Assembly: GCF_964355755.1 (NCBI RefSeq)
Contig: NC_092678.1
Location: 4,604,422 to 4,668,421, forward strand
Length of the DNA: 64,000 bases
From: Antedon mediterranea
Lineage: Eukaryota; Animalia; Echinodermata
Direction: 5' to 3'
Part shown: in pieces, positions 1,901 through 60,000 of the stretch
Layout of the letters: every line of letters begins with the position of its first letter
How positions within the stretch are numbered: the stretch's first letter is position 1
Notes under the pieces: model-generated
Database searches by the model: none
What the model saw: the letters and a program-made list of their open reading frames with translations, nothing else
Told to the model about the DNA's origin: nothing
Position numbers and translations under genes: made by a program

Positions 1901-1990
1901 AGTCTATTTCGTGCCTGCTTACCTGGATAAACCGACAATATAGCCTCTCTCTCCGAAGAGAGGATACAATTTACGAAAAAGAAAAATCCG
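1901..1990. repeat. Dispersed repeat family A, copy 1 (AGTCTATTTCGTGCCT...CTTACCTGGATAAACCGACA)
   Basis: Alignable copies at 13718 and 43431 share the same left boundary. Confidence 0.85.
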
Positions 1991-2368: not shown

Positions 2369-5300
2369 CCAAAACTTATGGTAAAAGATCTTCTGGATTT
2401 GGTTTCTTCACATTTCTTACTGAAGGAGAAGGGTTACTTTGGACTATCATTTAAAGATACCAAGTAAGTATCTAGGAAAATAGTTAGTTTGGACTTTCAG
2501 CAAGTAAGTATGCTTTAGAAGAAGAATTAGTTTTGACTTTCAGCAAGTAAGTATACTGTAAAAGAAAAGTTAGTTTTGACTTTCAGCAAGTAAGTATACT
2601 GTAAAAGAAGAATTAGTTTGAACTTTCAGCAAGTAAGTATACTGTAAAAGAAGAATTAGTTTGAACTTTCAGCAAGTAAGTATACTGTAGAATAAGAGTT
2701 AGTTTGAACTTTCAGCAAGTAAGTATACTGTAGAATAAGAGTTAGTTTTGACTTTCAGCAAGTAAGTATACTGTAGAATAAGAGTTAGTTTGGACTTTCA
2801 GCAAGTAAGTATACTGTAAAAGAAGAATTAGTTTTGACTTTCAGCAAGTAAGTATACTGTAGAATAAGAGTTAGTTTGAACTTTCAGCAAGTAAGTATAC
2901 TGTAAAAGAAAAGTTAGTTTTGACTTTCAGCAAGTAAGTATACTGTAAAAGAAGAATTAGTTTTGACTTTCAGCAAGTAAGTATACTGTAGAATAAGAGT
3001 TAGTTTGAACTTTCAGCAAGTAAGTATACTGTAAAAGAAGAATTAGTTTGGACTTTCAGCAAGTAAGTATACTGTAAAAGAAGAATTAGTTTTGACTTTC
3101 AGCAAGTAAGTATACTGTAGAATAAGAGTTAGTTTGAACTTTCAGCAAGTAAGTATACTGTAAAAGAAAAGTTAGTTTTGACTTTCAGCAAGTAAGTATA
3201 CTGTAAAAGAAGAATTAGTTTTGACTTTCAGCAAGTAAGTATACTGTAAAAGAAGAATTAGTTTGAACTTTCAGCAAGTAAGTATACTGTAAAAGAAGAA
3301 TTAGTTTTGACTTTCAGCAAGTAAGTATACTGTAAAAGAAGAATTAGTTTTGACTTTCAGCAAGTAAGTATACTGTAGAATAAGAATTAGTTTTGACTTT
3401 CAGCAAGTAAGTATACTGTAGAATAAGAGTTAGTTTGAACTTTCAGCAAGTAAGTATACTGTAGAATAAGAGTTAGTTTTGACTTTCAGCAAGTAAGTAT
3501 ACTGTAAAAGAAGAGTTAGTTTGGACTTTCAGCAAGTAAGTATACTGTACAAGAAGAGTTAGTTTTGACTTTCAGCAAGTAAGTATACTGTAGAATAAGA
3601 GTTAGTTTTGACTTTCAGCAAGTAAGTATACTGTAGAATAAGAGTTAGTTTTGACTTTCAGCAAGTAAGTATGCTGTACAAGAAGAGTTAGTTTTGACTT
3701 TTAGCAAGTAAGTATGCTGTAGAATAAGACTTAGTTTGGACCCATGAAGTTTCAATACTACTACTCTACATTGCCAATGCTTTCAACATATTACATTTGT
3801 TAAATGTCTTTGATCTGTAAGGCTTGTAATCAGTTAAAAATGTTTTGGCATTAATAACTTTGTAAGATATTATTGAACATTACCAGCTTATCAAACACTT
3901 TTACAAGTACTTGAAGAGATAACAAAATAACTTATCAACTTTGATAATAGTCGGGTAAACAAAGCGAATTTTCCCATAGATTATTTGGTAAAAGGATTTT
4001 TAACCTATTCACATTACACTAATAAGATTTCAAACTTTTATAGGCCATTTTCAAGATTGTTTTCAATAATTCAATTTGAGCACATTTTGATTTGAAATCA
4101 AAAGAAAAAACACTTCGTAATCTTGTCCATTTTTTAGATTTATATTTTGACATAAAAATATTAAATTTAGATTTTTACAAATATCAGTAGAGTGAATACT
4201 ATCCTACAATCTTTGTCTAAATTTTTGAAATAATTTAAATTTAATATTAATATTATAACTAATAGTAGAAAACAGTAAAAAACAGTAGAAAAAGACTGAG
4301 TGAATATTTGAGTTGAAACTGTTAAGTACATAGAGCTTAAGAAGATTTAAACTGTTCTTAAGCTGTTTCCTTTTACTGGTACAATTAAGCTGTTCCTTTT
4401 TCTGGAAACGCTATCTGATTGGTTGAACTAATGATTTAATCCTTTGAATAACTATTAAAATAAATTTGTGAAGTTGTATTTCAGGATCTACTAACTGTAC
4501 TTTACTATGTTAAACTATTTGATTTTGGTAACGTAGTAGAACCCCATTAAGGACCCAAAAGTAACCCCTAATTAGGGGTGACCTTTGAAAAGGGATTGGC
4601 TGTACTGTTGAAACTATTGCCCCTCATTCTTTTCCCATAATAGTGTCCTAAAGGAGTGGTTCTTATTTTTAAAAAGAAAACAATGGAGTTGTTCTGAAAA
4701 CAATGAAGCGTATTTCAATGCAGAAATGCAGATATTTTTTATGTTGAACTTCAGCATTGTAACTAGGTTACAGAAATTTTATGAAGAACGCCCTCTCTTG
4801 GCCTAGGTGCTACTTTCACAATTTCTGAAGTGAGACCTCTATTGACAGGTACTATTAATTAATACAGTTGAAGTGAGACCTCTATTATGCAGAATACAGG
4901 TATTAATACAGTTGAAGTGAGCCCTCAGGCATTGCAACAGCTTGTATGCTAACGGTTTCCCTATTTTACTAACAATAATAGTAATCCTGCCATTGTATTC
5001 TTGATCATAAAGTGGTTAGAACACAATAGACATATGCGTCAGACTGGTACATTACCATATCAAAGCAGCGTCTACTACATCTCAATGATAACTTGTTGCT
5101 TACAGGTAAACCAAACATCAGCTAACTGACCCATAAATTTTCTCATTGTAGTTCAAATATCATTTGGTTTGATCCTGAGCGTAAAATCAACGATTACAAC
5201 ATCCCGAAGAAGCCTGAGACGGTAACGTTAAATTTTGGCGTGCGGTGCTATATTGAGAGTATAACACATCTTGTGGATAGTGGTACGATAGAGTTGTTTT

Positions 5301-8300
5301 ACCTTCAAGCCAAGCTAGCCGTCTTCAAGGTGAGTAATTTTGTTATATAATACATTGTATGCTTCTATTGATATTTTACTTTCTCGTACAAAGGTCAAAC
5401 AATGCACACAGAGAATGAGTGACCTTAAAGTTTGCAGTCTAGGACCTGCCTTGTTGTTAGCCTGGACTCTTCTGGGAGAATAAGTAACCCTAGTAGAATT
5501 TGCGTTTACCACGATATAGCACCGATGGGATTTTAGGTACATTCGATGTAACTTTAACTCTGATAGGTTTCAGAATGTAACACAAGAACTTCTCATATGT
5601 ATATTGGGTGTTTAATCGGTCTAAAAGCTAAACCCATCAGGGGTATATTCAGTGTTTAACCGGTGTTAAATCTAAACCCATCAGGGGTATATTCAGTGTT
5701 TAACCGGTGTAAAAGCTAAACCCATCAACCACAATGAAACTCTGATAGACAATACAACATGCAAACGTTGACATAAATAATAAAGTTGATAGAGGTAATT
5801 ATTATCACACAATGTACGGAATCAATCATCACTATCGTTTCCAACATTACTTCATCAAACTTTTTATTTACCTATCCATCTAGCTCAAAGTAAACTAATA
5901 TTGACTAAGCTGTTAAAGGGAAATGATCAAATATACGCTATGAATAGCTTGTATTGATTGGTTAGAGCTATTATGACATAATGCAAGTAACGTTTCTATG
6001 CAGAGTTTTTTAAGGCACCTATTCCTTGCCCACTTTCACTCACCGTTGAATCAACCATGTTGCTTTATTATAGTTATTGGTATAGATACCTAAGTATCCT
6101 TTCTCTTGTCCCCCTCCCTCACTCCATTATTAAATCTATCCTGGTGTTTTATAGAGGTGTCTTGCAATTTAATTTGATTGTCATTAAAATATATTAATTA
6201 ATTATGTTAGAATATTCGTAATAATTTATCATATAAATATCCAATTGACCTTAGAATATTACACTGCATCCTTGGATATTTGGTATTATTTCAATAGAAA
6301 TCCTTGATTTTTGGTTGAATTTGTAAAGACAGTTTTTAATGGTGAAAGCAGTCATCTTCAGGGTCTGTGTATACATAATCTTTCTCGCAATGACATCAAG
6401 GGATGGCCCTCGCTAATCCCACCATTGTTCATGCTGCTGTTTTGTTAGTGCGGTTTGTTCCCACAGCTTTCCACTTCTTTTCCTCTCCGAGGGTTTTAAA
6501 AAGCTTTGCTTATTAGATTGTTAGCGTGCTCTAGTACACTCGAAAGCACAATTAAAACTCTATTATAAAAAGTTATACAATTTCAGGACAATATGTATAG
6601 ATTTACAAAGTTGTAAAATTTCAATGAAATTTTTAATAAAAGAAAGATTGGAGTTTGATAAAAAGATTGTATTACACTACAAACTTAAGATCATTTGTAG
6701 CTTATTTTTTTTTTTTTTAACTAAATTATATTACCATAAACAGTAAGATATTATGAATTGAAATTTACCACTGAATTAAATATACAGAATGATCTCATTA
6801 TTAGAAAAAAAGCACCTGGGTCTGAAATGAAAACTTCATCATTTGACCCAATGTGTGGGTCAAAACCAAATTTATCTTATTATCTCAGCAGAATAAATTG
6901 TCATTTTCATTCAGTTCCCAAGTGTATCGCACATCTTATTCAAAGGTTTGTTGTCAGACCCAATTAATGTCATCAGTAGGTAAATAGGGTGTAATTGGCT
7001 TAAGTATACGCTCTGCTGAAATCTACCAGCAGTCAATCGCAAGGTAGACTCATTCTTTGTTAGCCCGACTTTAGTGACATGCACGATATAACCTGCTTTC
7101 CCTAAAACCCATGGATAATAAAATGTCTTTACTGTCATGCTCCATAAACTTATGTTTCGTATACTCTAGACGCTTAAATGATGTTCTGTTTTTGGATTAA
7201 AGACCGGTACTTTGCCGATATCAAAAGAACTGTATCTGTTCTTCATTCTCTTGAGCATTTAAATTGTTATCCATGTTTTGTAAAAATCATAAACTAGAGA
7301 AGTCACCATACTGTAGCTAAATATTTCAACCATTCTTTATTATTTCTTTTTGTCTCTATTTCTTTCTGATTGTAATAAAAAAAATCTATTGTGCACACTT
7401 TTAAAAGTTCCATGCATTTAATAAAATAATTTCTTCTTTATTTCTATGACTAGTGCAAATATTGTTGCTAGACATATTAAATTTTATTCTATGCTGAGAT
7501 TTTACCATATTACTAATTTCTTGGACTTGAAACCTACAGTTGTTCTAGCCTTGACCCTCTCTGCAATATTTTATGAGGAGAGTCAATTAAAAACATGGCA
7601 ACTATCTTGACAGCTTGGAGAATCCATTTAAAACACATTTTTAAATCATGGAAAATCTTTACTCTGAACTTGACCTTTGACATCTTCATGTGGTTCAATG
7701 AGAATGTGAAAATTTAGGTCTAAGAAAGTAGACATTCTGCTAATGTTGTCAGTTGGTAATTGATTTATAATATGAATGTAGCAAGCAGACAATATAAGGC
7801 AAACTATTTAATAGAGAAACATTGTTTCTGTCGCACAGTTTGTATCTTGTAAATTTAAACTGCCTGTGTTATTTTTGTTAAGGATTTGTGTGGTTCTTTT
7901 CAGTCATCATCCAATGTAAAAGTGATGGCTTGTAATCAATTGATGTCTGCAGCCTATATTTTTAATGTTGAAAAGTAACTTGGTAAACCAAATGTTGTAA
8001 TAACTATCATCTATAAGAATAACAAAACTCAGATATTGTATTGTTATTTCAGGGTGATATAGAAGTGGACAGCGAAACAGCCTTTGAACTTGGTGCCTAC
8101 ACGCTTCAGGCTACTCACGGAGATTTTACAACGTAAGTCCTGCACCTTAAGTTTTACTACTACAGTTATTCTTATTGTACATTATAATATTCGATAGCTT
8201 TCTGAAATCAGACCTTGGCGCATTCTGGAAAGACTCTGTGACTACTTCACCAACCAATCACAAAGTTACATTTCCTTTAAATACTATTTTATGTTCAGGA

Positions 8301-11300: not shown

Positions 11301-14300
11301 AAAGAAAAAGATATCAAGATGTTAATATCTTCTTCTTGGTATCATTCTGTATGTGAAGAAGCCTAGACATTATATCACATAGCGTTCAACCAAACCTTGT
11401 GGGTTTCAGAATTTCTAATTAATGGCAATTGAATGTAAGTATGAAACCAAATGTAATACCCTGGATAAAAAAGAGCTAAAATTAAGTGATCACCAACAAA
11501 GTTTAACCTTTTTCTTATGTAAATAGCTATAGGGAATATTTGAATCCCTGTTGTCTTTGAGTGCAATACTGAACATGATCCCTGAATTCAATTCATAAAT
11601 AAGTAGTCGAGAGAATCTAGTTGGATTTTATAAATGAATATGATGATAAGAGATGAGATAGATAACACAGTTTTGGAAACTTGACACTTTTTAGTATTCT
11701 CTTGAACTTTTATTTACCGATGACCTCGAAAAAGAAGAATGGATACTTTTTAAGTGGCAATCAATAGAAACCAGGTTTTACTTGTGAGTGCGATATTGTT
11801 TTCTTCTTTTCAAGTATTTCTTTTGTTTTATTATTCGCTTTAGTTGAATGTAATTCCTGTTTCTGAGAACGTTAGCCTCTATACTGTTGTCGACTTTAGC
11901 TAAAGCCGGCTAGTGTTGTTTTCTTCAGTAGCGGATTTAAATAAATATTTAATTTGTTCATTTGTAGTAATAATCTGCTGTAATCTGTTATCATTAGTGG
12001 AAAATTATGCTCACTACTTTAATTCTTAAGTCATTATCAAGTTGTTAGTAGAATTTGTACTAATTCTTGTCGTTACTGTAAACTTTTCATTCATTTTTTA
12101 AATGTTTTTGTTAAACTTAATGTGTGTTTCTCTTTGGTTTAGTTCTTCTTCATATTATTAATAATCGAAATAACAATACATATGAAACAACAAAACAAAT
12201 GCTGAGATGATTATAGGCGGAATTACTATCATATTAAGTCTACGTTGACTTACCTCATAGCCTATCATCAATGAATAGATTAATAGAAAAACGTAATACA
12301 TTGTAAGTTTAGTGATATTATTCAATAATTTATAATATATTTGAAGTAAAACGCACGGAATGCAGTTTCTAAAGAAAGTATAACTAATTTTATGTAATTT
12401 TAATTACGGTAATCAATTAATGTAATTGTTAATTGCCATACTATAATCTATTAAAATGTTCATTTAATGGGACATTTTTACAATTTAATATTTGTATTGG
12501 CCATTAAAAGTAAGTTTATAATTATTTAGACTTTAATAACATTCTGTTATTTTTATATCTTTGAATCTGCATAAGTCTTCAGTATAATATATTAAGCTAA
12601 TCTTATATTAAGAATCTCATAAACATACTTAAGTGCTAATGTTTAAGCATGTAATTTGTAACTTCTTTTGCTTATTTACATTGCACTAATACTAGATGCA
12701 AAGAATTAGATTTACTCAGTCTTCCAAAAGATTTCAAATTTATCATTTCTAATGCTAACTATCTTTGAAACTAATTTCACCGGCTTACCAGAAAGTGTTT
12801 CTTCTCAAACAGATTCTGGAAAAAAATCTATATTAAGCGGATTTTATTTTTGGCATTTATCCATCCCTTGGGGCAATGGCCTCCCAAAGCCGATCTTTGT
12901 CTGATGTACTGTACATGAATAACCCAAATAAACGTTGAATATTCAAGGCGAGTGTATTTAGGTTGAACACAGCTAGCATATACGGTAGATATAGATATTC
13001 CTGCAAGCTAATTAGTATGCATACTTTATCGTTTCAAATTTCACATTTGTAAAGAAAGTGGGCATGTTAGTTGTTATGGTGTTTTCAAGTATGTAAAATG
13101 GACTTTGTAAAGTGGTACGTATCACCTGTCTACGATGCATGTCCATCAAAAGAGATCGGGAAAAGCGATATCGAAAAGAAAAACACAGTTTAATATCTTT
13201 TTGACTACTTGTTCTACTACTAAAAATAAAAATACTTTATACTTACTGTACTGCAAATTAAATGTGCTTTACGTTTTAAAAATATGTTGATGCATATCTA
13301 ATGAGATAGAGGTCACAATAAGAAGATACCATCTGAGCATGAATTGTCAATTTAAATATTTTGAGGATCATAAAGGTCAAATTAGATATGTAAGTCGTTG
13401 ACCCAGTTCATCAATTTTAAATCTAAAAGATAAGATTACTTATTAATAGCAGATGTTGATTTCAAATCATTTTAAATTGCCTTAAAAATGACACCAATCA
13501 CAAATTTGTTTAAAAATACAGTAAATATGAAATTGTATCCAAGTTTAATTATTCACAATTTGTTTAATTAGCACAACTTGACTTGTAGGGAGAAGACACT
13601 AATGATAAGAATGGCAAATAATAATTTTGAAAGGTAAATATAAAAGAAGCAAAAAAAAAAACAAACATAAATCTATAACTAATGAAAAAAACTATTAAAC
13701 AGGAATGACAATGATTCAGTCTATTTCGTGCCTAGCTTACCTGGATAAACCAACAATAGCCTTTCTCCTTGAAGAGCAAGATATAACTCGAAAAGTAGAA
13801 GTTTTCATTGAATCCCCCTCTCCACAAATAATATAATCCATGACCTGTTTAATTCTTGTTTGCCAATTGTCTAATTATCATTATGAATTGTTGTGTTGAT
13901 AATTTGAAGTATCTTCAATTCTATTAGAACAAACCTAAAGGAAATTCCAAATACTCAATTTTTATAATTTTGTATAACATTAATACTGCCATATTTGGTA
14001 TAATAACATTTTATTTTTAATTCATAATTGTTTATAACCATTGGTAATTAAACGTTATTGAACCATAAACACAATTAAAATGCGAATTATTATTACACAA
14101 AAGTAAATATTTAAAATCATATTTATTATTTACTTAATATGCTGTGTGTCAGTCTGGAAAGTAGATATTTAAATATTTTATAAAATATGAGTCTTTGTCT
14201 CTCATTGAGACAATGACTTTACATTTAATGTTTAATTTATTGTATTTTTATTTTATTTCAACCACATCCAGCAGCGACATAAATATAGAATTAAAAGCAC

Positions 14301-17300
14301 ATTAAAATGCAAAACATGAAACATACAAAACTTAAATCGATTTAAGAACTTTAGACTTAAATTTGGACAAAGTGTAAAAAAAAAATTATTAATTTTATTT
14401 TTTATTTTATTTTGTTATGTTTATCATCTTCTTGCTCATACATTAAATATTAACTGCATCACGTCTGTGTTTAATTGATGATGACTATTTTTAGCCATGT
14501 TAATTCCTAGTTCTTTGTTTATGTAATTACTTTTCCATTTTGTGGTGTTCAGTGAAGTCTGCCCTCAAGGCCAAAATACAAGGAAAACAAGTAAAATTGT
14601 AGGAGAATGAGTCATAGCATAGTAACACACTGTGGACTGTGGTAGTGTAGTTGACCTGATGGATACATTTTGAAGGCAGGTAGTACCATTTGTGTTACCT
14701 GTGTACCAGTTACCTTTACCTGTGTACCAGTTGTTACCGTTACCTGTGTACCCTTTGTTACCAATCGGCCTATGTACAGGAAGTAGTTAAACGATAAGAA
14801 TCTAATCACTTGGAATTTAAATCGGATGTTTATCATAGGATTGTGTGGATTTCTTTCTGGAGTAAATATACTTTTACTATTTATTCAAGTATGTCATACC
14901 GTAATCATTTATCTAATAATATTTGTTGGTAACTTATTGAGTACAGACTATATCGGTAACATTAGGTGACATATTATAGTGTAGTTCTATCGTGGTGGTA
15001 TAAATTTTCAGTAAACCTTGTAGCTCTGTGTCACCATTTGGAGGTAAAAAATATATTTATTTTTACCTCCATGGTGTCACCTTCTAGTTACGATTGTGCC
15101 CAAATGCCAATGTGTACATTGGACCATGTTGCACAACAGTTTTCCTCGATTACGATGACAATTTTAAGAAAAAAAAAACTCACTAGGGTGAGCAGCTCTT
15201 GAGAAAGAAGAAATACAATCCTGCTGTCACATTTAAATTTTTTAATTTGAAATTAATTCATAATGTCTATCTAAGTTGAACGACCAGCCTTGGTAATTTT
15301 CTCACCTTTGGATACTTTTATTCGATTATGTATTGATTGCAGAATTTGCATTTAATGCTGTAAAATATTAAGATGCATCATTAATTATTTATGTACACAT
15401 TTTATTCTTTGTTGAAGTTCATCCGCCTCCTCTAGTTTAAATAATCTTGAGTGTAAAAGTTCATCAGCAGAGTTTTTCAAATTACAGTGTTTGATCAAAA
15501 TTGTCTTTAGGTTTTTTGTACTTCAATAACCAAGTTTTTGGCCTGTAAGATTAGAGAGCGTTCTGTTCATGTTACCTTTGATCTCTGGATTAATCCAGAG
15601 GAGTACAGACAAGTTATTCCAAAATACAGTTAGAATCCCTCCTTTCCGACACCCCTATTAAGAAGAAACCCATTTCAAGGCGACACTCTGTGTCCTAGGC
15701 CCCGTTTCTGCTGCCAAAAATATACCGTATATATACGGTATATTTTATATACGGTATATTTTTCGGCAGCAGAAATGGGTCTAATGGGTCTCATAAAAAA
15801 TATACCGTATATATATACGGTATATATACCGCATAAATATCCCCATCGTTTGTGGATATTATATGGTATATTCCAAAATATACCGTATATTTCGTACCCC
15901 GTTTCTGCTGCACTCAAAATATACCGTATATGTGACCCGGCCCATGACACGAGGTCAAAAACTAACAGAACGTGACGCGTTTGTTTGATTTTTCTGCTGC
16001 GTTACACACACGTGTATAATAAGCAAGCAACAGATCAAAATATCACTGTGGACTGAAGAAATAACTATTTTTGCAATTCAATTGTGGGGAGAAGCGAAAG
16101 TTAGGGGGAGACTACATGGCAACAGAAGAGATACCGAGATTTACAAAAGTATCTCAAACAAAATAAAAGCAGAATTTATGGTAGACTTAATAACGACAAA
16201 GTTATCGGCAAACGCCGTCGTCTTCTTTGCATAAATCTAGTCAATGCCCATTCTACATTTCTAGATTGTTTGTGCGATGTAAATTCGTTGCCACTTCTGA
16301 TCATTAGATTTAAAATAGAAAGCAATGCTACGACGTTTTGAGAAACCATCATTGTTTTGTTTTTGTCATGTAACCTCACTACACGAGACTCTAGGTCAAT
16401 CCATACTTCCGTCTCACAAAATGCATTTTGGGTATATGAAAGCCAACTTTTTTTACAGCCCACCCACGAAGTACAGTATGTGCAGCGGAAACGGTGCACG
16501 AATTTCATATACGGTATATTTATACGGTATATTTATACGGTATATTTGGGATTGGCAACAGAAACAGGGCCCTACAGGTGTCCCCAAAACAAAATAATAT
16601 TAAGAATGATGTACTCATATAGTAAATGATAACTTGTAATTACATATTAGAGTAAGGCAAACGATTACTGTCATTGCAATTTGTAGTAATTTAACTCAAT
16701 GACGTCAATTAATTACCTTGAGTGTTTTGAACTTATTTATGGACACATTTTTCAATTTGCAACGTTTTTTTGAATATTATTGATTAATTTTTTCTAGTAT
16801 CCAGATGTTTGAATTTGCTTAAAGCTAACTCAATATGAATAATTTCAAATGTACTGTATTTTAACAAAATTATAAATAGTATAATTAAATTTTTGACTGT
16901 TTAGTTATCTTTCGGTCTTTCAATTATTTTTTTTCGGTTTTTTTTTTCTTAATTCTTCCATATCGTTTTCTTCCCAATTTTCATGAACAAAAAATGAATT
17001 TTGAATTATCATAATAGCAAGAAGTAAAGAATATTTTAAGTCATATCGATACCACTGTGCTGCATACAACCTGTTGGTATTTATTCCTTTTTTTTCTAAA
17101 ATTAGTTTTTTTGTATTAAATGTGTAATACTTGCGTGCTTTGATATTTTATATCTGTCATACCTACAGTAACTATGACAAAAGAATATATAATTATAATT
17201 TTTGTCACAATGAAGGACAACCAAGCATTAATATTTTATGGTAAATTTTAAAATAGTTAAAATCAATATGTTTATGAGTTACCAATACACGTACTGTAGT

Positions 17301-41793: not shown

Positions 41794-51286
<9,493 letters not shown>

Positions 51287-51883
51287 GATGATGTCGCTGA
51301 TTTGCTAAGTAACAATCTGTTCAACCAATCATGAACTTTTTACTTGGTTGAACAATTGATAAATAATTTGAATAGAATCAATTTCTGTAAATACTATGTT
51401 TTTAAAGATATAACTACTTATGTCAACGTTTCACTTTACCCTTTGCTGACATCATAACTGGAGTCAGTTCAGTATTATATTTTGTGATCTTCCTGGAAAT
51501 GTGTATCTCCCCCCCCCCCCCCCCCCGTTCTGGTAACAACCAACATGTTAATTTGACCTTTCAACCCACTACCAGTTTGGGGTCGCCTGAATTTGGTAAA
51601 CATTAAGATAAGTGATCAGCAATTTGATTTGGTTGAATTTCAAATTAATGTATGATAAATTGTAGGTTTTTTTAAGTGAGACTTATAACCTATTTGTAAA
51701 TAGTATTAACGACTTAGATTAGTAAACAGACATGTAAACAAAACGATTATCGAATGTCAATATCCTTGTTGTAAGTTGAGCTTTAGTCAACTGTGTTGGC
51801 TCAGTGTATAAAGGCTTATTTCACTCCCTTATTAAAAGGAGATAATATGTACAACTGTAGTGCTAATGATTAGTTACTGTAAA

Positions 51884-52492
51884 CTAGCTACATGAGGGAG
51901 GGTGTGATGACATCACTAGCTACATGAGAGTGTGATGACATCACTAGCTACATGAGGCAGGGTTTAATATGACATCACTAGCTACATGAGGCAGGGTTTA
52001 ATATGACATCACTAGCTACATGAGGCAGGGTTTAATATGACATCACTAGCTACATGAGACCGGGTGTGATGACATCACTAGCTACATGAGGCAGGGTTTA
52101 ATATGACATCACTAGCTACATGAGACCGGGTGTAATGACATCACTAGCTACATGAAGAAGGGTGTGGTGACATCACTAGCTACATGATAGTGTGATGACA
52201 TCACTATCTACATGAGGGTGTGATGACATCAATAGCTACACGAGAGTGTGATGTCATCAATAACTACATGAGGCAAAGTGTGATGACATCACTATCTACA
52301 TGAGGGTGTGATGACATCAATAGCTACATGAAGAAGGATGTGGTGACATCAATAGCTACATGAGAGTGTGATGACATCACTATCTACATGAGGGTGTGAT
52401 GACATCAATAGCTACATTAGGGTGTGATGTCATCACTAACTACATGAGGGTGTGATGACATCACTAGCTACATGAGGCAAAGTGTGATGACA
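51884..52492. repeat. 28-35-bp minisatellite, about 20 units, downstream of the HCF stop
   Basis: Core GTGTGATGACATCACTAGCTACATGAG with variable linkers; two more units at 50511-50557 in an HCF intron. Confidence 0.95.
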
Positions 52493-54024: not shown

Positions 54025-57000
54025 ATGGCAGTTTTTGAGAAAAAGAAGTCAACAAAAGTAACACTTGATGATACTGTTCCGTTGACATGTTTAATTGAAA
54101 CGGCACAAAATGTTCAAACACACACAGTAAGTATGTTTATTCCTCATAAAGTCCTAGGCCTAGCCTCTAGTCAGAGTCTCTTTTTATGACACGGGTCATA
54201 CTAATCTACGCCAGGCGAGTTCAGGCAGTGCGCAGGTTAGTATGACTCTGTGACACGGGCCTGACCTGATCTTGCTTTAGCTGTCAGTAATTCTTCCTAC
54301 ATGGTATAGGCTAAACTTATATTTCCAATGACTGTTTTTGTTTCAACTGTTTAAAACATACTGTTACATGAATTTAGAACATAGATAGGCCTAGGTCTAG
54401 GCTTGGGAAATTCCAAGTTTTTTTGCAGCAATTATTAATTTCTTTGCCCGGACCTAAGGCCTAGAGTAGAACATAGCTTAAACATTTTTTTTAATTATTT
54501 AGGATTATGTCATCAGAGTGCATAGAGGACCCTCTCTTGAAAATAGCTGGCAGGTATGTTTTACATCTATTTGTTAATAATATGCTTTATTTAAACACGA
54601 AAACTTGGCTCAACTAGGTAGCAGTTGTTTTTCTGCAAAGCCGTGTATAAAAACAAAAAGTTCACAAACAAAAATCTTACATTATACTGAAATATTAATA
54701 CTAATAAACAATCTTATTCTTAACTACTGTTTTTTGCTTAAAAATAACTACTGAATAGATTAAAAATAAAACTGGCAGGATATAATGTTTCCATTAAAAT
54801 AGGCCTACACATTAAATCTTTATAAAGTTGGCATAATTTGTTTTTTAAATAAAGAAATAGTTTGGACATTTTTAAGATATATAATTTAATATTAATAATA
54901 ATGGTAAAGAAAACAATTAAAAAAGAATTAAGAATATAAAATAAAGGGGACAAAACTTATTAATTGATATTAATTTCTTTTGCAGATAAACAGAAGATAC
55001 AGTGATTTTGTATTCCTGAATGACAACCTGAAGGTCACTGGCATAGAATTCCCACTGCCGCCTAAGAAAGTGTTCGGGAACATGGATCGTGAATTCATCG
55101 CGGAGAGACAGATCGGCTTACAGACTTACTTGAACGTACTCCTCCAACATCACATGGTATCAACTAGCTATTTCTTCCGCAAGTTTCTGGACCCTTCGAA
55201 TCACCCGCCAAATTTACATGGTATGATATATCATTATTTTTCATTTCAAATGCTAAATTAAACAATATTAAACAGCTTGATGAAACTGTCTTGAAACCAG
55301 AGGAAAATTTTTTAACTCAATATTAAAAATCATTTTTAAAATATATACTCGTAATTTTGCTAGGAACAAATTTAACATTAAAATTTTATCATGTAAATTT
55401 AGATTAGTATGTTTCTTGTTCTATCTTTTGGTTGAGAGTCAGTACATGTAAAAATACTGCTGTTGCTAAATTCTATACATTACATAGAAAATGACACTAG
55501 AAAACATTGTGTTTTTATTTGTTGTATTTTGTGTACTGTACCATTACAGTACATGTTCTGTGCTCATATTCAAACTGAATGCGAATCCATACTATGTACA
55601 TTTTATGCTTGAGTACATCATTTATTATTTAAATTTATAGCGTTTATAGAAACCTTTGAATCAGATTCTATGAATCGCATGTAAAACAGATAATAAAGAA
55701 AAGCCTTAGTGAGGTTTTAAAGGGATTAATATAGGTATTGATAAAATCCATAAGGTAATGTTATACATTGGGCCCATCCAGCCTGTATATGCCCCTTTCC
55801 CATAATTATAATGACATCTAAAGCCATTTACAGGGGCATATTAAGTGCAGGACACAGTGAAGTTACAAGCAGGGCATTCTAGAAGTCCTTAAGACCTTTG
55901 AGTTTCATTACAATATATATTTAATAGAGAAAATCGAATACAATACAATTGTGACTAAACGCAAAAAAATCTAACAGATAATGCATCTATTAATAATGCA
56001 TTTAAAGTCCCCAGGCAGGCAGTGACATTTACACATTTTAAATCAATCCCTAAATTACATTTAGTTTCAATATGGTGCATTTATTTGTTGAATGTGGCTA
56101 GCATGGAAACGTCCACATTTTTATCTTTAATTTAATTTGGAGTTTGGACAGAGAAAAACTAACAGTATATTAGTCATATTTGATTTATAATGTTTAAAAA
56201 TGTTTCTTCAACTTAAATATGTATTAAATGTTATTCATACTTAGTCATTAAATGTTTCAATTTCAAGTTTATTACTTTAGTAATTTTATTTGTTATTTCA
56301 AATGTTTACAGAAATGTTTTCATGTAGCCTGTTGGTTTTCTTAATGTATTGATCCAATAACTGACTTCCTAAGTCAAAGGTCATAACCTCAATTTGCCTC
56401 CAATATGGTTTTTCTATCGAGTCACTTCCCCTTGTAGCTTGCATGGTTATATTGCCTTATATGGAAGTTGTATTGTCTTATATAAGCATCAACTATGTAC
56501 GTACCTCAATAAAAATTGGAAACTGGGCAATTAGTAAAATAATATATTAATTGACATTCTCAAAAATCGCTGAATAACAAAACTATACTATTATTATATC
56601 ATACAGTACACACATGTTAAATCACTTGTCTTTGATCCTATGAACCTTTGATAAAGAATACATAATAATATTTCTTGACAATTAGTATAAAATATTAATT
56701 GACATTCTGAACAATTAATTAACTGAATAATAGGACAATACTGTTATATCATACAGTACACATGTATTTAATTACTTGACTGTGATCCAATCAAACTTTT
56801 GTGAAGAATACATAATGATATTTCTTGTGGTTTTTTTAAACAGAGGTTGCTCTACAACATGTTTCCATGTTTTTCCGATCAGAACCTCACTGGGAAGTGG
56901 TGGAACCACTGAAGGATATTGGATGGCGTCTCAGAAAGAGCTACTTTATGGTGCGCCCAAAAGATCAACCAAAAGTAAAACAGGTTCTTGCTTGGGTAAG

Positions 57001-60000
57001 TTCTTACAGAATCCATAATCTTTAGCTAATCCATTTATTAGCTAATCCAATAGCTACTGAACCTAATCCGATCTTTACCTAATCCAATCTTTTCCTAATC
57101 CATCCTTTACCTAATCCAATCTTTTCCTAATCCATCCTTTACCTAATCCAATCTTTCACTACTGTACAATCTTTAGCTTTTCTGTATATCAAAAAGTAAC
57201 TCCTGTTTTTTAAAATGTCATTGCAATTTTCAGAGTGATTTTGGACCAGATAAAACACTAGTGGACAAAGACTTAGTAGGGCTGATGAAGCTACTTCCAA
57301 CGTTACAACATCCATTCATTTATCCTGTGACATACGCATCAGCTAACGAATCAGGAGGACTCGCTATTCGAACATTCCATGCTACAGGCACACTACGTGA
57401 TTTCATCTGCAAGGTAATTCAGTTTTTGCTTTTGAATGTATTTGCTGATTTTTGTAGTATTACTATAGAGAGCTAACTAGGTGACCGTGAAGTGGTCCCT
57501 CTCCTTTATCTTTGTATTTTTTCCATAGATATACTATTAAACTACTAGAGAGTCAACTAGTTGACACCAAAGCGGTCCCTCCTATTATTACCATAGAGAT
57601 ACTGTACTATTAAACTACTAGAGAGTAAACTAGGTGACACCAAAGTGGTCCCTCCTATTATTACCATAGAGATACTGTACTATTAAACTAATAGAGAGTA
57701 AACTAGCTGACACCAAAGTGGTTCCTCTATATTATCTTTATATTATCTTCATAGAGATACTATTAAACAACTAGAGACACAACTAGGTGACATCAAAGTG
57801 GTCCCTCCTATTATTACCATAGAACTACTATTAAATTACTAGAGTCAACTAGGTGACATCAAAGTGGTCCCTCCAATTATTACCATAGAACTACTATTAA
57901 ACAACTAGAGACACAACTAGGTGACATCAAAGTGGTCCCTCCTATTATTACCATAGAACTACTATTAAATTACTAGAGTCAACTAGGTGACATCAAAGTG
58001 ATGCAGACAAGCTAGGAATGCAGCCTCTCCATTAGTGTCTTTGTATTATTTTATTTTGATATTTTGTTTGCAGGCTAAACCAAAGTTTCATTTTCTGAGA
58101 AAATACTGCAAACCAAAGTCTTTCACAGCTTTCAATCTGATGAACATAAAAACATATGGCCGACAAATCCTTGAGGTAAGGTTAATTTTTTCAAAAAGAA
58201 TATTAAATATATAAGAATTATTTTAAGAATTTTACACTAACATTTTCTACATATTATTAATCAATGATTTCTCTTTCTCGTGTACGTAGGCGTTAAAGTT
58301 CTTAAAAGAGAAAGGCTTTCCTTACGGCCACCTGCATGCATCAAACGTCATGTTAGAGGGAAACACCTGTCGTCTGCTAGATATTGAAAATAGTCTGCTA
58401 GGATTACCATCCTATTATAGGATGTATTTTACACAGTTTAAGAAGATTAATGTAAGTATATTAAGATATTTTTATGTAACAAAATAATGTGCCCATATAT
58501 AGACATGATGATGTCATATCAGTACCATATTTGAGCACAACACATTTTGTTACATGAAGTTTGATCGTGTAGACAGAGCTTAAGGTGTTCTAGAGTAGAG
58601 ATGTCTAGTAGGAGAAGGGTAATTTTGTATTCTATCAAAATCAAAACATTGATTCCGGTCAGTGTAATTCCAGCAATAATGTTGCTTTTGTATTTTTGAC
58701 AGACAATGGAAGCAGTTGATGTTTATTGTTTTGGACATTTACTTTATGAGATGGTTCAGGGTGAGCAACTGAATGCAGCAACCAAAGATGACTTTCCACA
58801 AACAATTTCTGCTCCAATTAGTAAGTACATTACACACTATCGTCAACAGTGGCGTAATGGCTATGAGCGCTCACTGGCTAAACCCAGGGGCTCCAGAGCT
58901 CAAAGGGCCCAAAGCATGAGCAGCCCAATGCAACTACCCAGCGTTGGAGGGCGCCTTAGGAGTGTTAAACCAGGGGCCTTTTCCACCAGTGTTACGCCAC
59001 TGCTTGCAGATTCTACAATTGACTTTGTACGCTTTCCCAATACTCTACTGGTAAAAATGTAACACATTGATTTATTGGTTTTATTTTAGAATCTGTTTTG
59101 GAATCAATTTTAAATACAGAATCCTGTAAAAGCAAATTACCTAGCATAGATGAACTGATAGCTGATCCGTAAGTTGTTAGTTCATTTGAATTGTTGAATA
59201 AACTAGGTCGTTTCAAACATGTTTTAGTCTTCATATTATTTAAACTTACTTATTGGTTGATTTTGTAACTATGGACATCCGTTTCAGAAATAAGAGTAAA
59301 ATGAACGAATGAATTAAAAGCAGTTAGCACACTTGTGAAAATATAATTTATTTGTCGTTTTATTTGCAGATTGTTTAGCGACGTACCAATGCCCGGAGGA
59401 GATCGTCCACAATTTAGAATTCCAAGTAAACTTAAAGAGTCTGTCAAGTTGTTTCAAGAAAATGGCATTGAGAAACGATTAAAAGAAGAACAGAAACAGG
59501 TATGTGATATTTGTCATTTGCAATTGTACTCTGCTCTGTTCCAAAATATGTGTATGGGTCTATAACACTAAAGCGTGGTTCCCACTAGAACGTGATTTAA
59601 CAGAGTGATGTATCGACGCAAGGTGCTGTATTGCGTAATCACAAGTGGGAACCGATGACGAAACAGTGCTGCAAACACCACAGTTTTGATTTCATGGGCG
59701 GGGGCGCAAACACAATTATCGGAAGGGCATTTTCTTATGTTGCGTAGTTTGCGTTGCATCGCTAGTGGGAACCACGCTTAAATACATTCAAGATGGCTAG
59801 GTACAATCAATAACTATATTATGATATTTTGTTTAAGTTACTCACTTTCACTATATCTTTAGATTTCATCGCATAGAAGAATTACAAAAGCACATGCCCA
59901 TCACAACTCAGCAGAGGAGAAGAAGAGGAGAAAGAAAGTGTCGATGAAAAAAAGGATGTCGGAACAAGCGCTAGTGGTAGATAAGACATCTGAGGCACCA

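What the first reader, a model, noticed from the sequence alone, without database searches (positions are those of the whole stretch)
2461..3741. Splice-donor-born array: 29 consecutive AG|CAA|GTAAGT units, a possible 3-nt microexon or ratchet ladder
Seen: the array starts at the true exon end (..ACCAA|gtaagt, 2463/2464). Every 43-bp unit reads tttcag-CAA-gtaagt (tttag in the last unit): acceptor, 3 nt, consensus donor, with 40-nt GT...AG spacers (37 nt for the first). The intron is phase 2 (AA|T), so each included CAA adds one Asn (AAC) and regenerates the same CAA|GTAAGT donor. Extending the exon to a downstream donor gives AAG TAA, an immediate stop. Inference: stepwise or recursive splicing could yield FRMD4 isoforms with 0-29 extra Asn in a FERM F1 loop, or the array acts as a U1 decoy or NMD-coupled rheostat whose strength depends on VNTR copy number. 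Caveat: 40-nt introns are very short and the TTGAC branch-like motif sits very close to the AG, so the array may be inert.
Basis: partly seen in the sequence, partly recalled or inferred. Interest (0 to 1): 0.8.

Follow-up and report, generated by a model that had tools for sequence, protein, structure and literature searches.

The report
Exon-end minisatellite with unused splice donors
In a feather-star FRMD4-like gene, the end of one exon and its splice signal are repeated 29 times in the next intron; the one available transcript assembly uses only the first signal, so this is likely an ordinary repeat of a kind known from human and lancelet genes, not a ladder of three-base exons.

Summary
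The unit is a decayed copy of the exon's last 46 nt plus 7 intron nt, less 10 nt (35 of 43 identical). CAA|GTAAGT is inherited; the AG is a by-product; the 29 copies are one event amplified. The one informative RNA contig joins 2463 directly to 5152 (n=0), as do all 3 RefSeq isoforms covering the junction. Contigs drop rare forms, so minor inclusion is not excluded. The 37/40-nt spacers are shorter than all 40 true introns in the window (minimum 113), and every unit has another AG 11 nt upstream (true acceptors: 17 or more, 40 of 40). A related species has the array, but 2 of its first 4 units break the AG-CAA-GT pattern. This is a new member of the exon-intron-boundary minisatellites (human F7 IVS7, CBS, 6-16; amphioxus 'mirages'). 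The scan has noted this kind before on other DNA, once in this genome.

The parts
2369..2463 (+). FRMD4-like coding exon (95 nt, FERM F1 lobe), ending at the true donor
   Evidence: The window CDS is identical to P0002 residues 23-1243. The X5 RNA contig aligns 2363-2463 with 0 differences and stops there.
2418..2470 (+). Source of the repeat unit: last 46 nt of the exon plus first 7 nt of the intron (53 nt; 43 after a 10-nt loss)
   Evidence: 35 of 43 positions match the unit consensus, and 37 of 43 columns carry the source base in some unit. 0 of 5000 shuffles reach the score with the CAA/GTAAGT part left out.
2464..5151 (+). Phase-2 intron of 2688 nt, removed end to end in the majority mRNA
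   Evidence: X5 contig position 455 = 2463 and 456 = 5152; the loose end before 5152 is the exon end.
2464..3741 (+). 43-bp minisatellite: 29 AG-CAA-GTAAGT boundaries (CAA at 2501+43k, donors at 2504+43k) and a 34-nt partial unit at 3708-3741
5152..5329 (+). Next coding exon; its acceptor is the one used

Best explanation
The array is a minisatellite whose unit is a decayed copy of the exon end plus its splice donor, and the cell likely splices from the first, true donor straight to the next exon, discarding the array as intron. Shown: the unit matches exon 2418-2463 plus 7 intron nt with 10 nt missing, so CAA|GTAAGT is the copied real junction. Shown: the majority mRNA in one RNA run is n=0. 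Inferred: one tandem duplication across the junction, loss of 10 nt (with one substitution, or as two small deletions) that placed an AG three bases before the donor, then expansion and homogenisation by slippage or unequal exchange, begun before the split from a related species. Inferred from human F7: the downstream donors are competent but lose to the most upstream one. Inferred: the internal AGs are poor acceptors, because each sits 37-40 nt from the previous donor, has another AG 11 nt upstream and a purine-rich spacer. Any leak to donor 2 or 3 would make a stop codon at once and would likely be cleared by NMD.
For: Origin: 35 of 43 identity to the exon end less 10 nt; shuffle test 0 of 5000; X1 and X6 carry two first-spacer bases (2478 G, 2481 G) that bring it closer to the exon. 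RNA: the X5 contig (1091 nt, depth 25) joins 2463 to 5152 and goes on spliced at 5330; no other X5 contig covers 2396-2453, and no joint from 3707 to 5152 is listed. RefSeq: 3 of 4 cluster members cover the junction and all 3 are n=0. Geometry: 40 true introns are 113 nt or longer, and their AG-free zone is 17 nt or more in 40 of 40, against 11 nt in 29 of 29 units. No UGC within -25..-3 in any of 29 units. Related species: by my reading of the contig coordinates, boundary 3 lacks 4 nt (no AG-CAA-GT) and boundary 4 has a GAG acceptor with a broken tract. A frame-neutral look is common: 9 of 40 true exon ends have a YAG 3-27 nt (multiple of 3) before the donor, and 8 of 40 end in YAG|GT. Precedents: PMC1557585, PMC3087553, PMC3902484.
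Against: Only one informative RNA run, of unknown tissue, held as contigs that drop rare variants; the RefSeq models may rest on overlapping data. None of the 9 variable columns falls in the 11 signal columns (nominal p about 0.05, chosen after looking). By a small weight matrix the unit acceptors (1.1-3.6) score no worse than the real acceptor at 5152 (leave-one-out 1.9), though 36 of 40 true acceptors beat the median unit. Steps that skip units would give introns of 123-212 nt, so intron size alone does not forbid use. The donor is strong (top 8 of 40), and in mammalian microexons donor strength tracked inclusion better than the AG-free zone did (bioRxiv 2024.09.17.613571, passage). In 6-16 and CBS two pseudo-donors are used (PMC1557585). 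The array has lasted across a species split.
Confidence: 0.85

Rival explanations
1. Copy-number-dependent leak: the second or third donor is used at a rate that matters, the immediate stop sends those transcripts to NMD, and array length or sequence tunes FRMD4 output.
For: All 30 donors read CAA|GTAAGTAT. Extension gives K-stop at once. Two pseudo-donors are used in human 6-16 and CBS (PMC1557585). NMD would hide such transcripts. Contig depth over the units differs widely between runs, a hint of length variation (the tool warns that this is no copy number).
Against: No X5 contig crosses 2463/2464 (depth 0 at 2478). In F7 only the most upstream donor is used unless the pseudo-sites match the consensus perfectly. 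Where leak is known it involves the two nearest copies, so it need not scale with copy number (inference).
Confidence: 0.08
2. Microexon bank or ladder: in some tissue (for example nerve) one or more CAA units are included, in single steps or skipping units, giving FRMD4 with extra Asn in a FERM F1 loop.
For: The frame is kept and a strong donor is regenerated. The signal columns are invariant in the window's 28 full units (nominal p about 0.05). Skipping steps would give introns of normal size. The real acceptor is weak too. Human introns of 43-56 nt are spliced (PMC4463651).
Against: n=0 in the RNA contig and in 3 of 3 covering isoforms. AG-free zone 11 nt against 17 or more in 40 of 40; the branch-like A is at -8 or absent. 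No UGC. No G triplets in the spacers, unlike the G-rich human ultra-short introns. The pattern is broken in 2 of the first 4 units of the related species. The loop has no indel between crinoid FRMD4 and moesin.
Confidence: 0.05
3. The array is an assembly artefact.
For: Tandem arrays can be mis-sized in assemblies (general knowledge); the exact count of 29 was not checked with long reads.
Against: Units differ in a patterned way (13 distinct units). DNA contigs of three other runs, from two organisms, carry units at this place.
Confidence: 0.01

Closest known systems
Human F7 intron 7 (IVS7) 37-bp VNTR, and the like arrays of 6-16/IFI6 (25 pseudo-sites), CBS intron 13 (15-20), LAMIN B2 and PDGF, as described in PMC1557585 (seen: abstract, passages of introduction and results, whole discussion; the original papers on the other four genes were not read)
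   Same: The first monomer spans the exon-intron junction, the donor is reiterated unchanged, unit size and copy number are similar, and the most upstream donor is used.
   Different: Here most of the unit (36 of 43 nt) is exon-derived, against 4 of 37 nt in F7. An internal 10-nt loss puts an AG three bases before each donor. The host is an echinoderm. Pseudo-donor competence was not tested here.
Amphioxus 'mirages' (Adh3, globins BflGb6 and BflGb9, troponin C, PGBD5); PMC3087553 and PMC3902484 (passages seen)
   Same: Minisatellite-like duplication of an exon-intron boundary in an invertebrate deuterostome. Many units keep AG/GT signals, clusters are homogenised with divergent ends, and regular splicing is reported undisturbed.
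   Different: Crinoid rather than lancelet; more copies (29 against 3-6 in BflGb6); each unit holds an acceptor-like and a donor signal 3 nt apart.
Neural 3-27 nt microexons (SRRM3/4, eMIC program); bioRxiv 2024.09.17.613571 (passages seen)
   Same: Frame-preserving size and a strong donor.
   Different: No inclusion seen, no UGC motif near the AG, short AG-free zone, not kept in the related species.
Recursive splice sites and ratchet points (described in the review PMC13196383, passage seen; the zero-nucleotide AG|GT layout is recalled)
   Same: An acceptor followed closely by a regenerated donor.
   Different: Three bases lie between AG and GT, so each step would leave a mark in the mRNA. 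The intron is 2.7 kb, not a very long one, and the sites are 43 nt apart.

Membership tests
Exon-intron-boundary minisatellite (F7 IVS7 type, amphioxus mirage) | First monomer spans the exon-intron junction; the unit derives from it | tested here: met
   35 of 43 identity to 2418-2470 less 10 nt; 0 of 5000 shuffles
Exon-intron-boundary minisatellite (F7 IVS7 type, amphioxus mirage) | Authentic donor sequence reiterated downstream | tested here: met
   29 of 29 further donors read CAA|GTAAGTAT
Exon-intron-boundary minisatellite (F7 IVS7 type, amphioxus mirage) | Main mRNA uses the most upstream donor | tested here: met
   X5 contig joins 2463 to 5152; 3 of 3 covering RefSeq isoforms; majority form only
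Exon-intron-boundary minisatellite (F7 IVS7 type, amphioxus mirage) | Copy number varies between alleles | tested here: inconclusive
   Unit-to-flank contig depth differs (X1 2119/47, X6 364/53; X9 9245/197, X6 575/49) and X1 holds unit variants absent from the window, but the tool states that depth is no copy number
Exon-intron-boundary minisatellite (F7 IVS7 type, amphioxus mirage) | Homogenised interior with divergent end units | tested here: met
   The first, second and last units carry private changes; interior units recombine a few alleles
Exon-intron-boundary minisatellite (F7 IVS7 type, amphioxus mirage) | Pseudo-donors become active when the first donor is mutated | not testable with these tools
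   Needs a minigene
Neural microexon (SRRM3/4, eMIC) | Included in mRNA of some tissue | tested here: inconclusive
   Absent from the majority form in one RNA run of unknown tissue; no raw reads were offered
Neural microexon (SRRM3/4, eMIC) | UGC motif close upstream of the AG | tested here: not met
   0 of 29 within -25..-3
Neural microexon (SRRM3/4, eMIC) | Signals conserved between related species | tested here: not met
   2 of the first 4 boundaries are altered in organism B (read from tables 5, 5c and 8)
Recursive splice site (ratchet point) | Acceptor directly abutting a regenerated donor, leaving no trace in mRNA (recalled) | tested here: not met
   3 nt lie between AG and GT in 29 of 29
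Recursive splice site (ratchet point) | Intermediates in nascent RNA (junction reads, lariats, saw-tooth cover) | not testable with these tools
   Only contigs were available
Ultra-short spliceosomal introns (human, 37-65 nt) | Shown to be excised; mostly G-rich with G-triplet enhancers | tested here: not met
   No excision seen; no GGG in any spacer; shortest true intron in the window 113 nt; features from PMC4463651

The most novel reading that the evidence does not exclude
In some tissue, most plausibly nerve, the spliceosome jumps from the true donor to an internal AG three or more units away and includes CAA, so a variable-number repeat acts as a bank of identical 3-nt microexons. Its length would set how many asparagines enter a FERM-domain loop: microexons born by duplication of an exon end.
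Probability: 0.05. Interest if true: 0.75.

Novelty: new member of a known kind. Interest (0 to 1): 0.15.

Why it matters
As it stands it is a tidy extra example, in a crinoid, of exon-boundary minisatellites known from humans and lancelets, with an unusually readable origin. It shows how a duplication across a splice junction can produce a frame-preserving acceptor-3 nt-donor motif by accident, which is raw material for exon or intron gain. It would matter more only if n>=1 transcripts were found. It would then be a natural test of how 3-nt microexons arise and of how the spliceosome chooses among 30 identical donors.

Tried and rejected
No whole genome is held for this window, so a genome-wide count of such arrays was not possible. 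The run search listed 9 runs, none on record as RNA and none as raw reads; 5 of the 9 were laid (X1, X5, X6, X8, X9). X5 and X8 proved to hold spliced contigs. X8 is uninformative for the junction: its contig begins at 5269 and it has no cover of exon 2369-2463. RNA structure masking the pseudo-donors: z = 0.41 for 2420-2720, and the true donor is predicted no more open than the copies; rejected. A global U1 decoy was rejected on general knowledge: 29 sites in one intron cannot titrate an abundant snRNP. A splice-site weight matrix from 40 introns did not separate the units cleanly from weak true acceptors. Of the 10 other tandem-repeat spans checked, none overlaps an annotated splice site; the nearest are 21 and 73 nt away. 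The first attempt to build the intron list failed on a wrong start coordinate and was corrected. Literature: no paper on this locus or on such arrays in crinoids was listed; a search for a VNTR driving recursive splicing in PCBP3, a recalled lead, found 0 papers; the original CBS paper was not among the 8 listed of 76. The library lacks most subscription papers, so these blanks do not show absence from print. No look-alike stretch among the scan's notes on other genomes.

Full report
Observation. The array is as described. TRF reports 2482-3741, period 43, 29.3 copies. AG-CAA-GTAAGT occurs 29 times, and with the true donor at 2464 there are 30 donors. The spacers are 37 nt (first) and 40 nt (28 others), and a 34-nt partial unit ends at 3741. 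The motif AG-NNN-GTAAGT occurs nowhere else in the window on either strand. The 29 copies are, however, one event amplified.

Host gene. The next exon (5152-5329) matches Antedon mediterranea RefSeq proteins at 100% and an Anneissia japonica protein named FERM domain-containing protein 4A-like at 83%. The window's spliced CDS, with the intron removed from 2464 to 5151, is identical to P0002 residues 23-1243. Three of the four cluster members cover the junction and all three have no extra Asn; the fourth starts further down. The junction lies in a short loop of the FERM F1 lobe that aligns without a gap between the Anneissia protein and moesin (the lobe assignment rests on the Pfam FERM_N hit, the loop label on recall).

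Origin of the unit. With the CAA and GTAAGT left out, the first spacer still aligns to the exon's 3' part (0 of 5000 shuffles reach the score). The last 46 nt of the exon plus 7 intron nt make 53 nt. Removing 10 nt just before the final CAA gives 43 nt, which matches the unit consensus at 35 of 43 positions; 37 of 43 columns carry the source base in some unit. Contigs of X1 and X6 have two bases in the first spacer that are closer still to the exon. So CAA|GTAAGT is the copied true junction. The AG in front of CAA came with the 10-nt loss, either with one substitution or as two small deletions that bring the exon's own AG forward; the data do not tell these apart. A frame-neutral look is not rare. 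Among 40 true exon ends in the window, 1 has YAG exactly 3 nt before the donor, 9 have one at a multiple of 3 up to 27 nt, and 8 end in YAG|GT.

RNA. Nine runs hold the gene, all as contigs, none on record as RNA. I laid five of them on the two flanks of the array. X5 has a 1091-nt contig at depth 25 that aligns 2363-2463 (contig 355-455, no differences), resumes at 5152 with contig position 456, and continues spliced into the exon at 8053. Its loose end before 5152 is the exon end with no extra CAA. No other X5 contig covers 2396-2453, none crosses 2463/2464, and no joint from the last array donor to 5152 is listed. This shows the majority form in one sample of unknown tissue.

Are the internal AGs usable? 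I annotated 40 introns in the window's three genes and checked them by open reading frame. The shortest is 113 nt. All 40 acceptors have at least 17 nt free of AG upstream; all 29 units have 11 nt. The only branch-like yUnAy near a unit's AG has its A at -8 and is missing in many units. No unit has UGC within -25..-3. Against this: a weight matrix puts the units (1.1-3.6 bits) at the low tail of true acceptors, where the real acceptor at 5152 also lies (1.9), and about 11% of 1736 decoy AGs score as high as the median unit. Steps that skip units would have normal intron lengths. The donor is strong, and in a mammalian study donor strength tracked microexon inclusion better than the AG-free zone did (bioRxiv 2024.09.17.613571, four passages seen). 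Human introns of 43-56 nt are spliced, but most are G-rich (PMC4463651, passages), and these spacers hold no G triplet.

Conservation. Within the window's 28 full units, 9 columns vary and none is in the 11 signal columns (nominal p about 0.05, chosen after looking). A related organism B (intron about 65 substitutions and 43 gap positions in 836 nt) has the array at the same place. Reading the coordinates of its 2367-nt contig by hand (tables 5, 5c and 8), boundaries 1 and 2 are intact, boundary 3 lacks 4 nt so that no AG-CAA-GT remains, and boundary 4 has GAG with a broken pyrimidine tract. A loose end in X9 fits the same 4-nt loss. Unit-to-flank depth differs several-fold between runs, which hints at length variation, though the tool warns that it is no copy number.

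What is known. PMC1557585 (abstract, passages, whole discussion) describes minisatellites whose first monomer spans an exon-intron boundary in human F7, 6-16, CBS, LAMIN B2 and PDGF. In F7, LAMIN B2 and PDGF only the authentic donor is used; in 6-16 and CBS two pseudo-donors are used as well. F7 pseudo-donors become active one after another when upstream ones are mutated. Amphioxus 'mirages' are the same build in an invertebrate deuterostome, often keep AG/GT signals, and are reported not to disturb splicing (PMC3087553, passages; PMC3902484, one passage). The array meets the tested defining features of this kind. It fails the tested features of neural microexons, ratchet points and G-rich ultra-short introns. 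No paper on this locus or on crinoid examples was listed, in a library that lacks most subscription journals. No supplements were read. Earlier notes of this scan describe the same kind in this genome and in others; I had reached my reading before opening them and did not test them.

Verdict. A real, well-dated-by-sequence exon-end minisatellite, most likely spliced out whole from the first donor (0.85). A meaningful NMD leak (0.08) or a tissue-restricted microexon bank (0.05) remain open until raw reads are counted. New member of a known kind; interest 0.15.

Noticed in passing
window 41794-51286 (+): An 18-exon gene with one open frame of 1356 codons; it reads like host cell factor HCFC1 (name recalled from the translation, not from a call). 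Used only as a source of true splice sites.
   Followed up: partly
window 54025-59990 and on (+): A gene with an open frame of at least 479 codons over 11 exons; it reads like PX-domain kinase-like PXK (name recalled). Used only for splice sites.
   Followed up: partly
window 2483-2540 and 3660-3729, run X5: In the RNA run the collapsed repeat units have contig depth of only about 4-10, similar to single-copy intron pieces (2-7), although many copies should pile up. Fewer copies in that individual, sparse intron cover or fast removal could each explain it; contig depth is a poor measure.
   Followed up: no
window 3742-3803: The array's last, partial unit abuts sequence that other loci share: several contigs join it at 3756 from unrelated flanks and depth is raised there. 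A repeat insertion or a deletion may have cut the last unit.
   Followed up: no
window 50515-50546 and 51883-52477: The unit of the 28-bp minisatellite at 51883-52477, downstream of the HCFC1-like stop codon, also appears in about two copies just after the donor at 50493 in an intron of that gene.
   Followed up: no
window 57017-57156 and 57515-58000: Two minisatellites fill short introns of the PXK-like gene, 21 nt after a donor and 73 nt before an acceptor, without copying the splice sites.
   Followed up: partly
window 1901-1971, 13727-13790, 43437-43500: A short dispersed repeat with very high contig depth in all four runs laid over 1901-1971; similar copies are visible at the other two places. 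Likely a small mobile element.
   Followed up: no
window 15715-15925 and 16495-16565: Clusters of a 13-16 nt near-palindromic A/T-rich unit in opposite orientations about 600 nt apart, within the 16-kb FRMD4 intron; possibly the ends of an inverted-repeat element.
   Followed up: no
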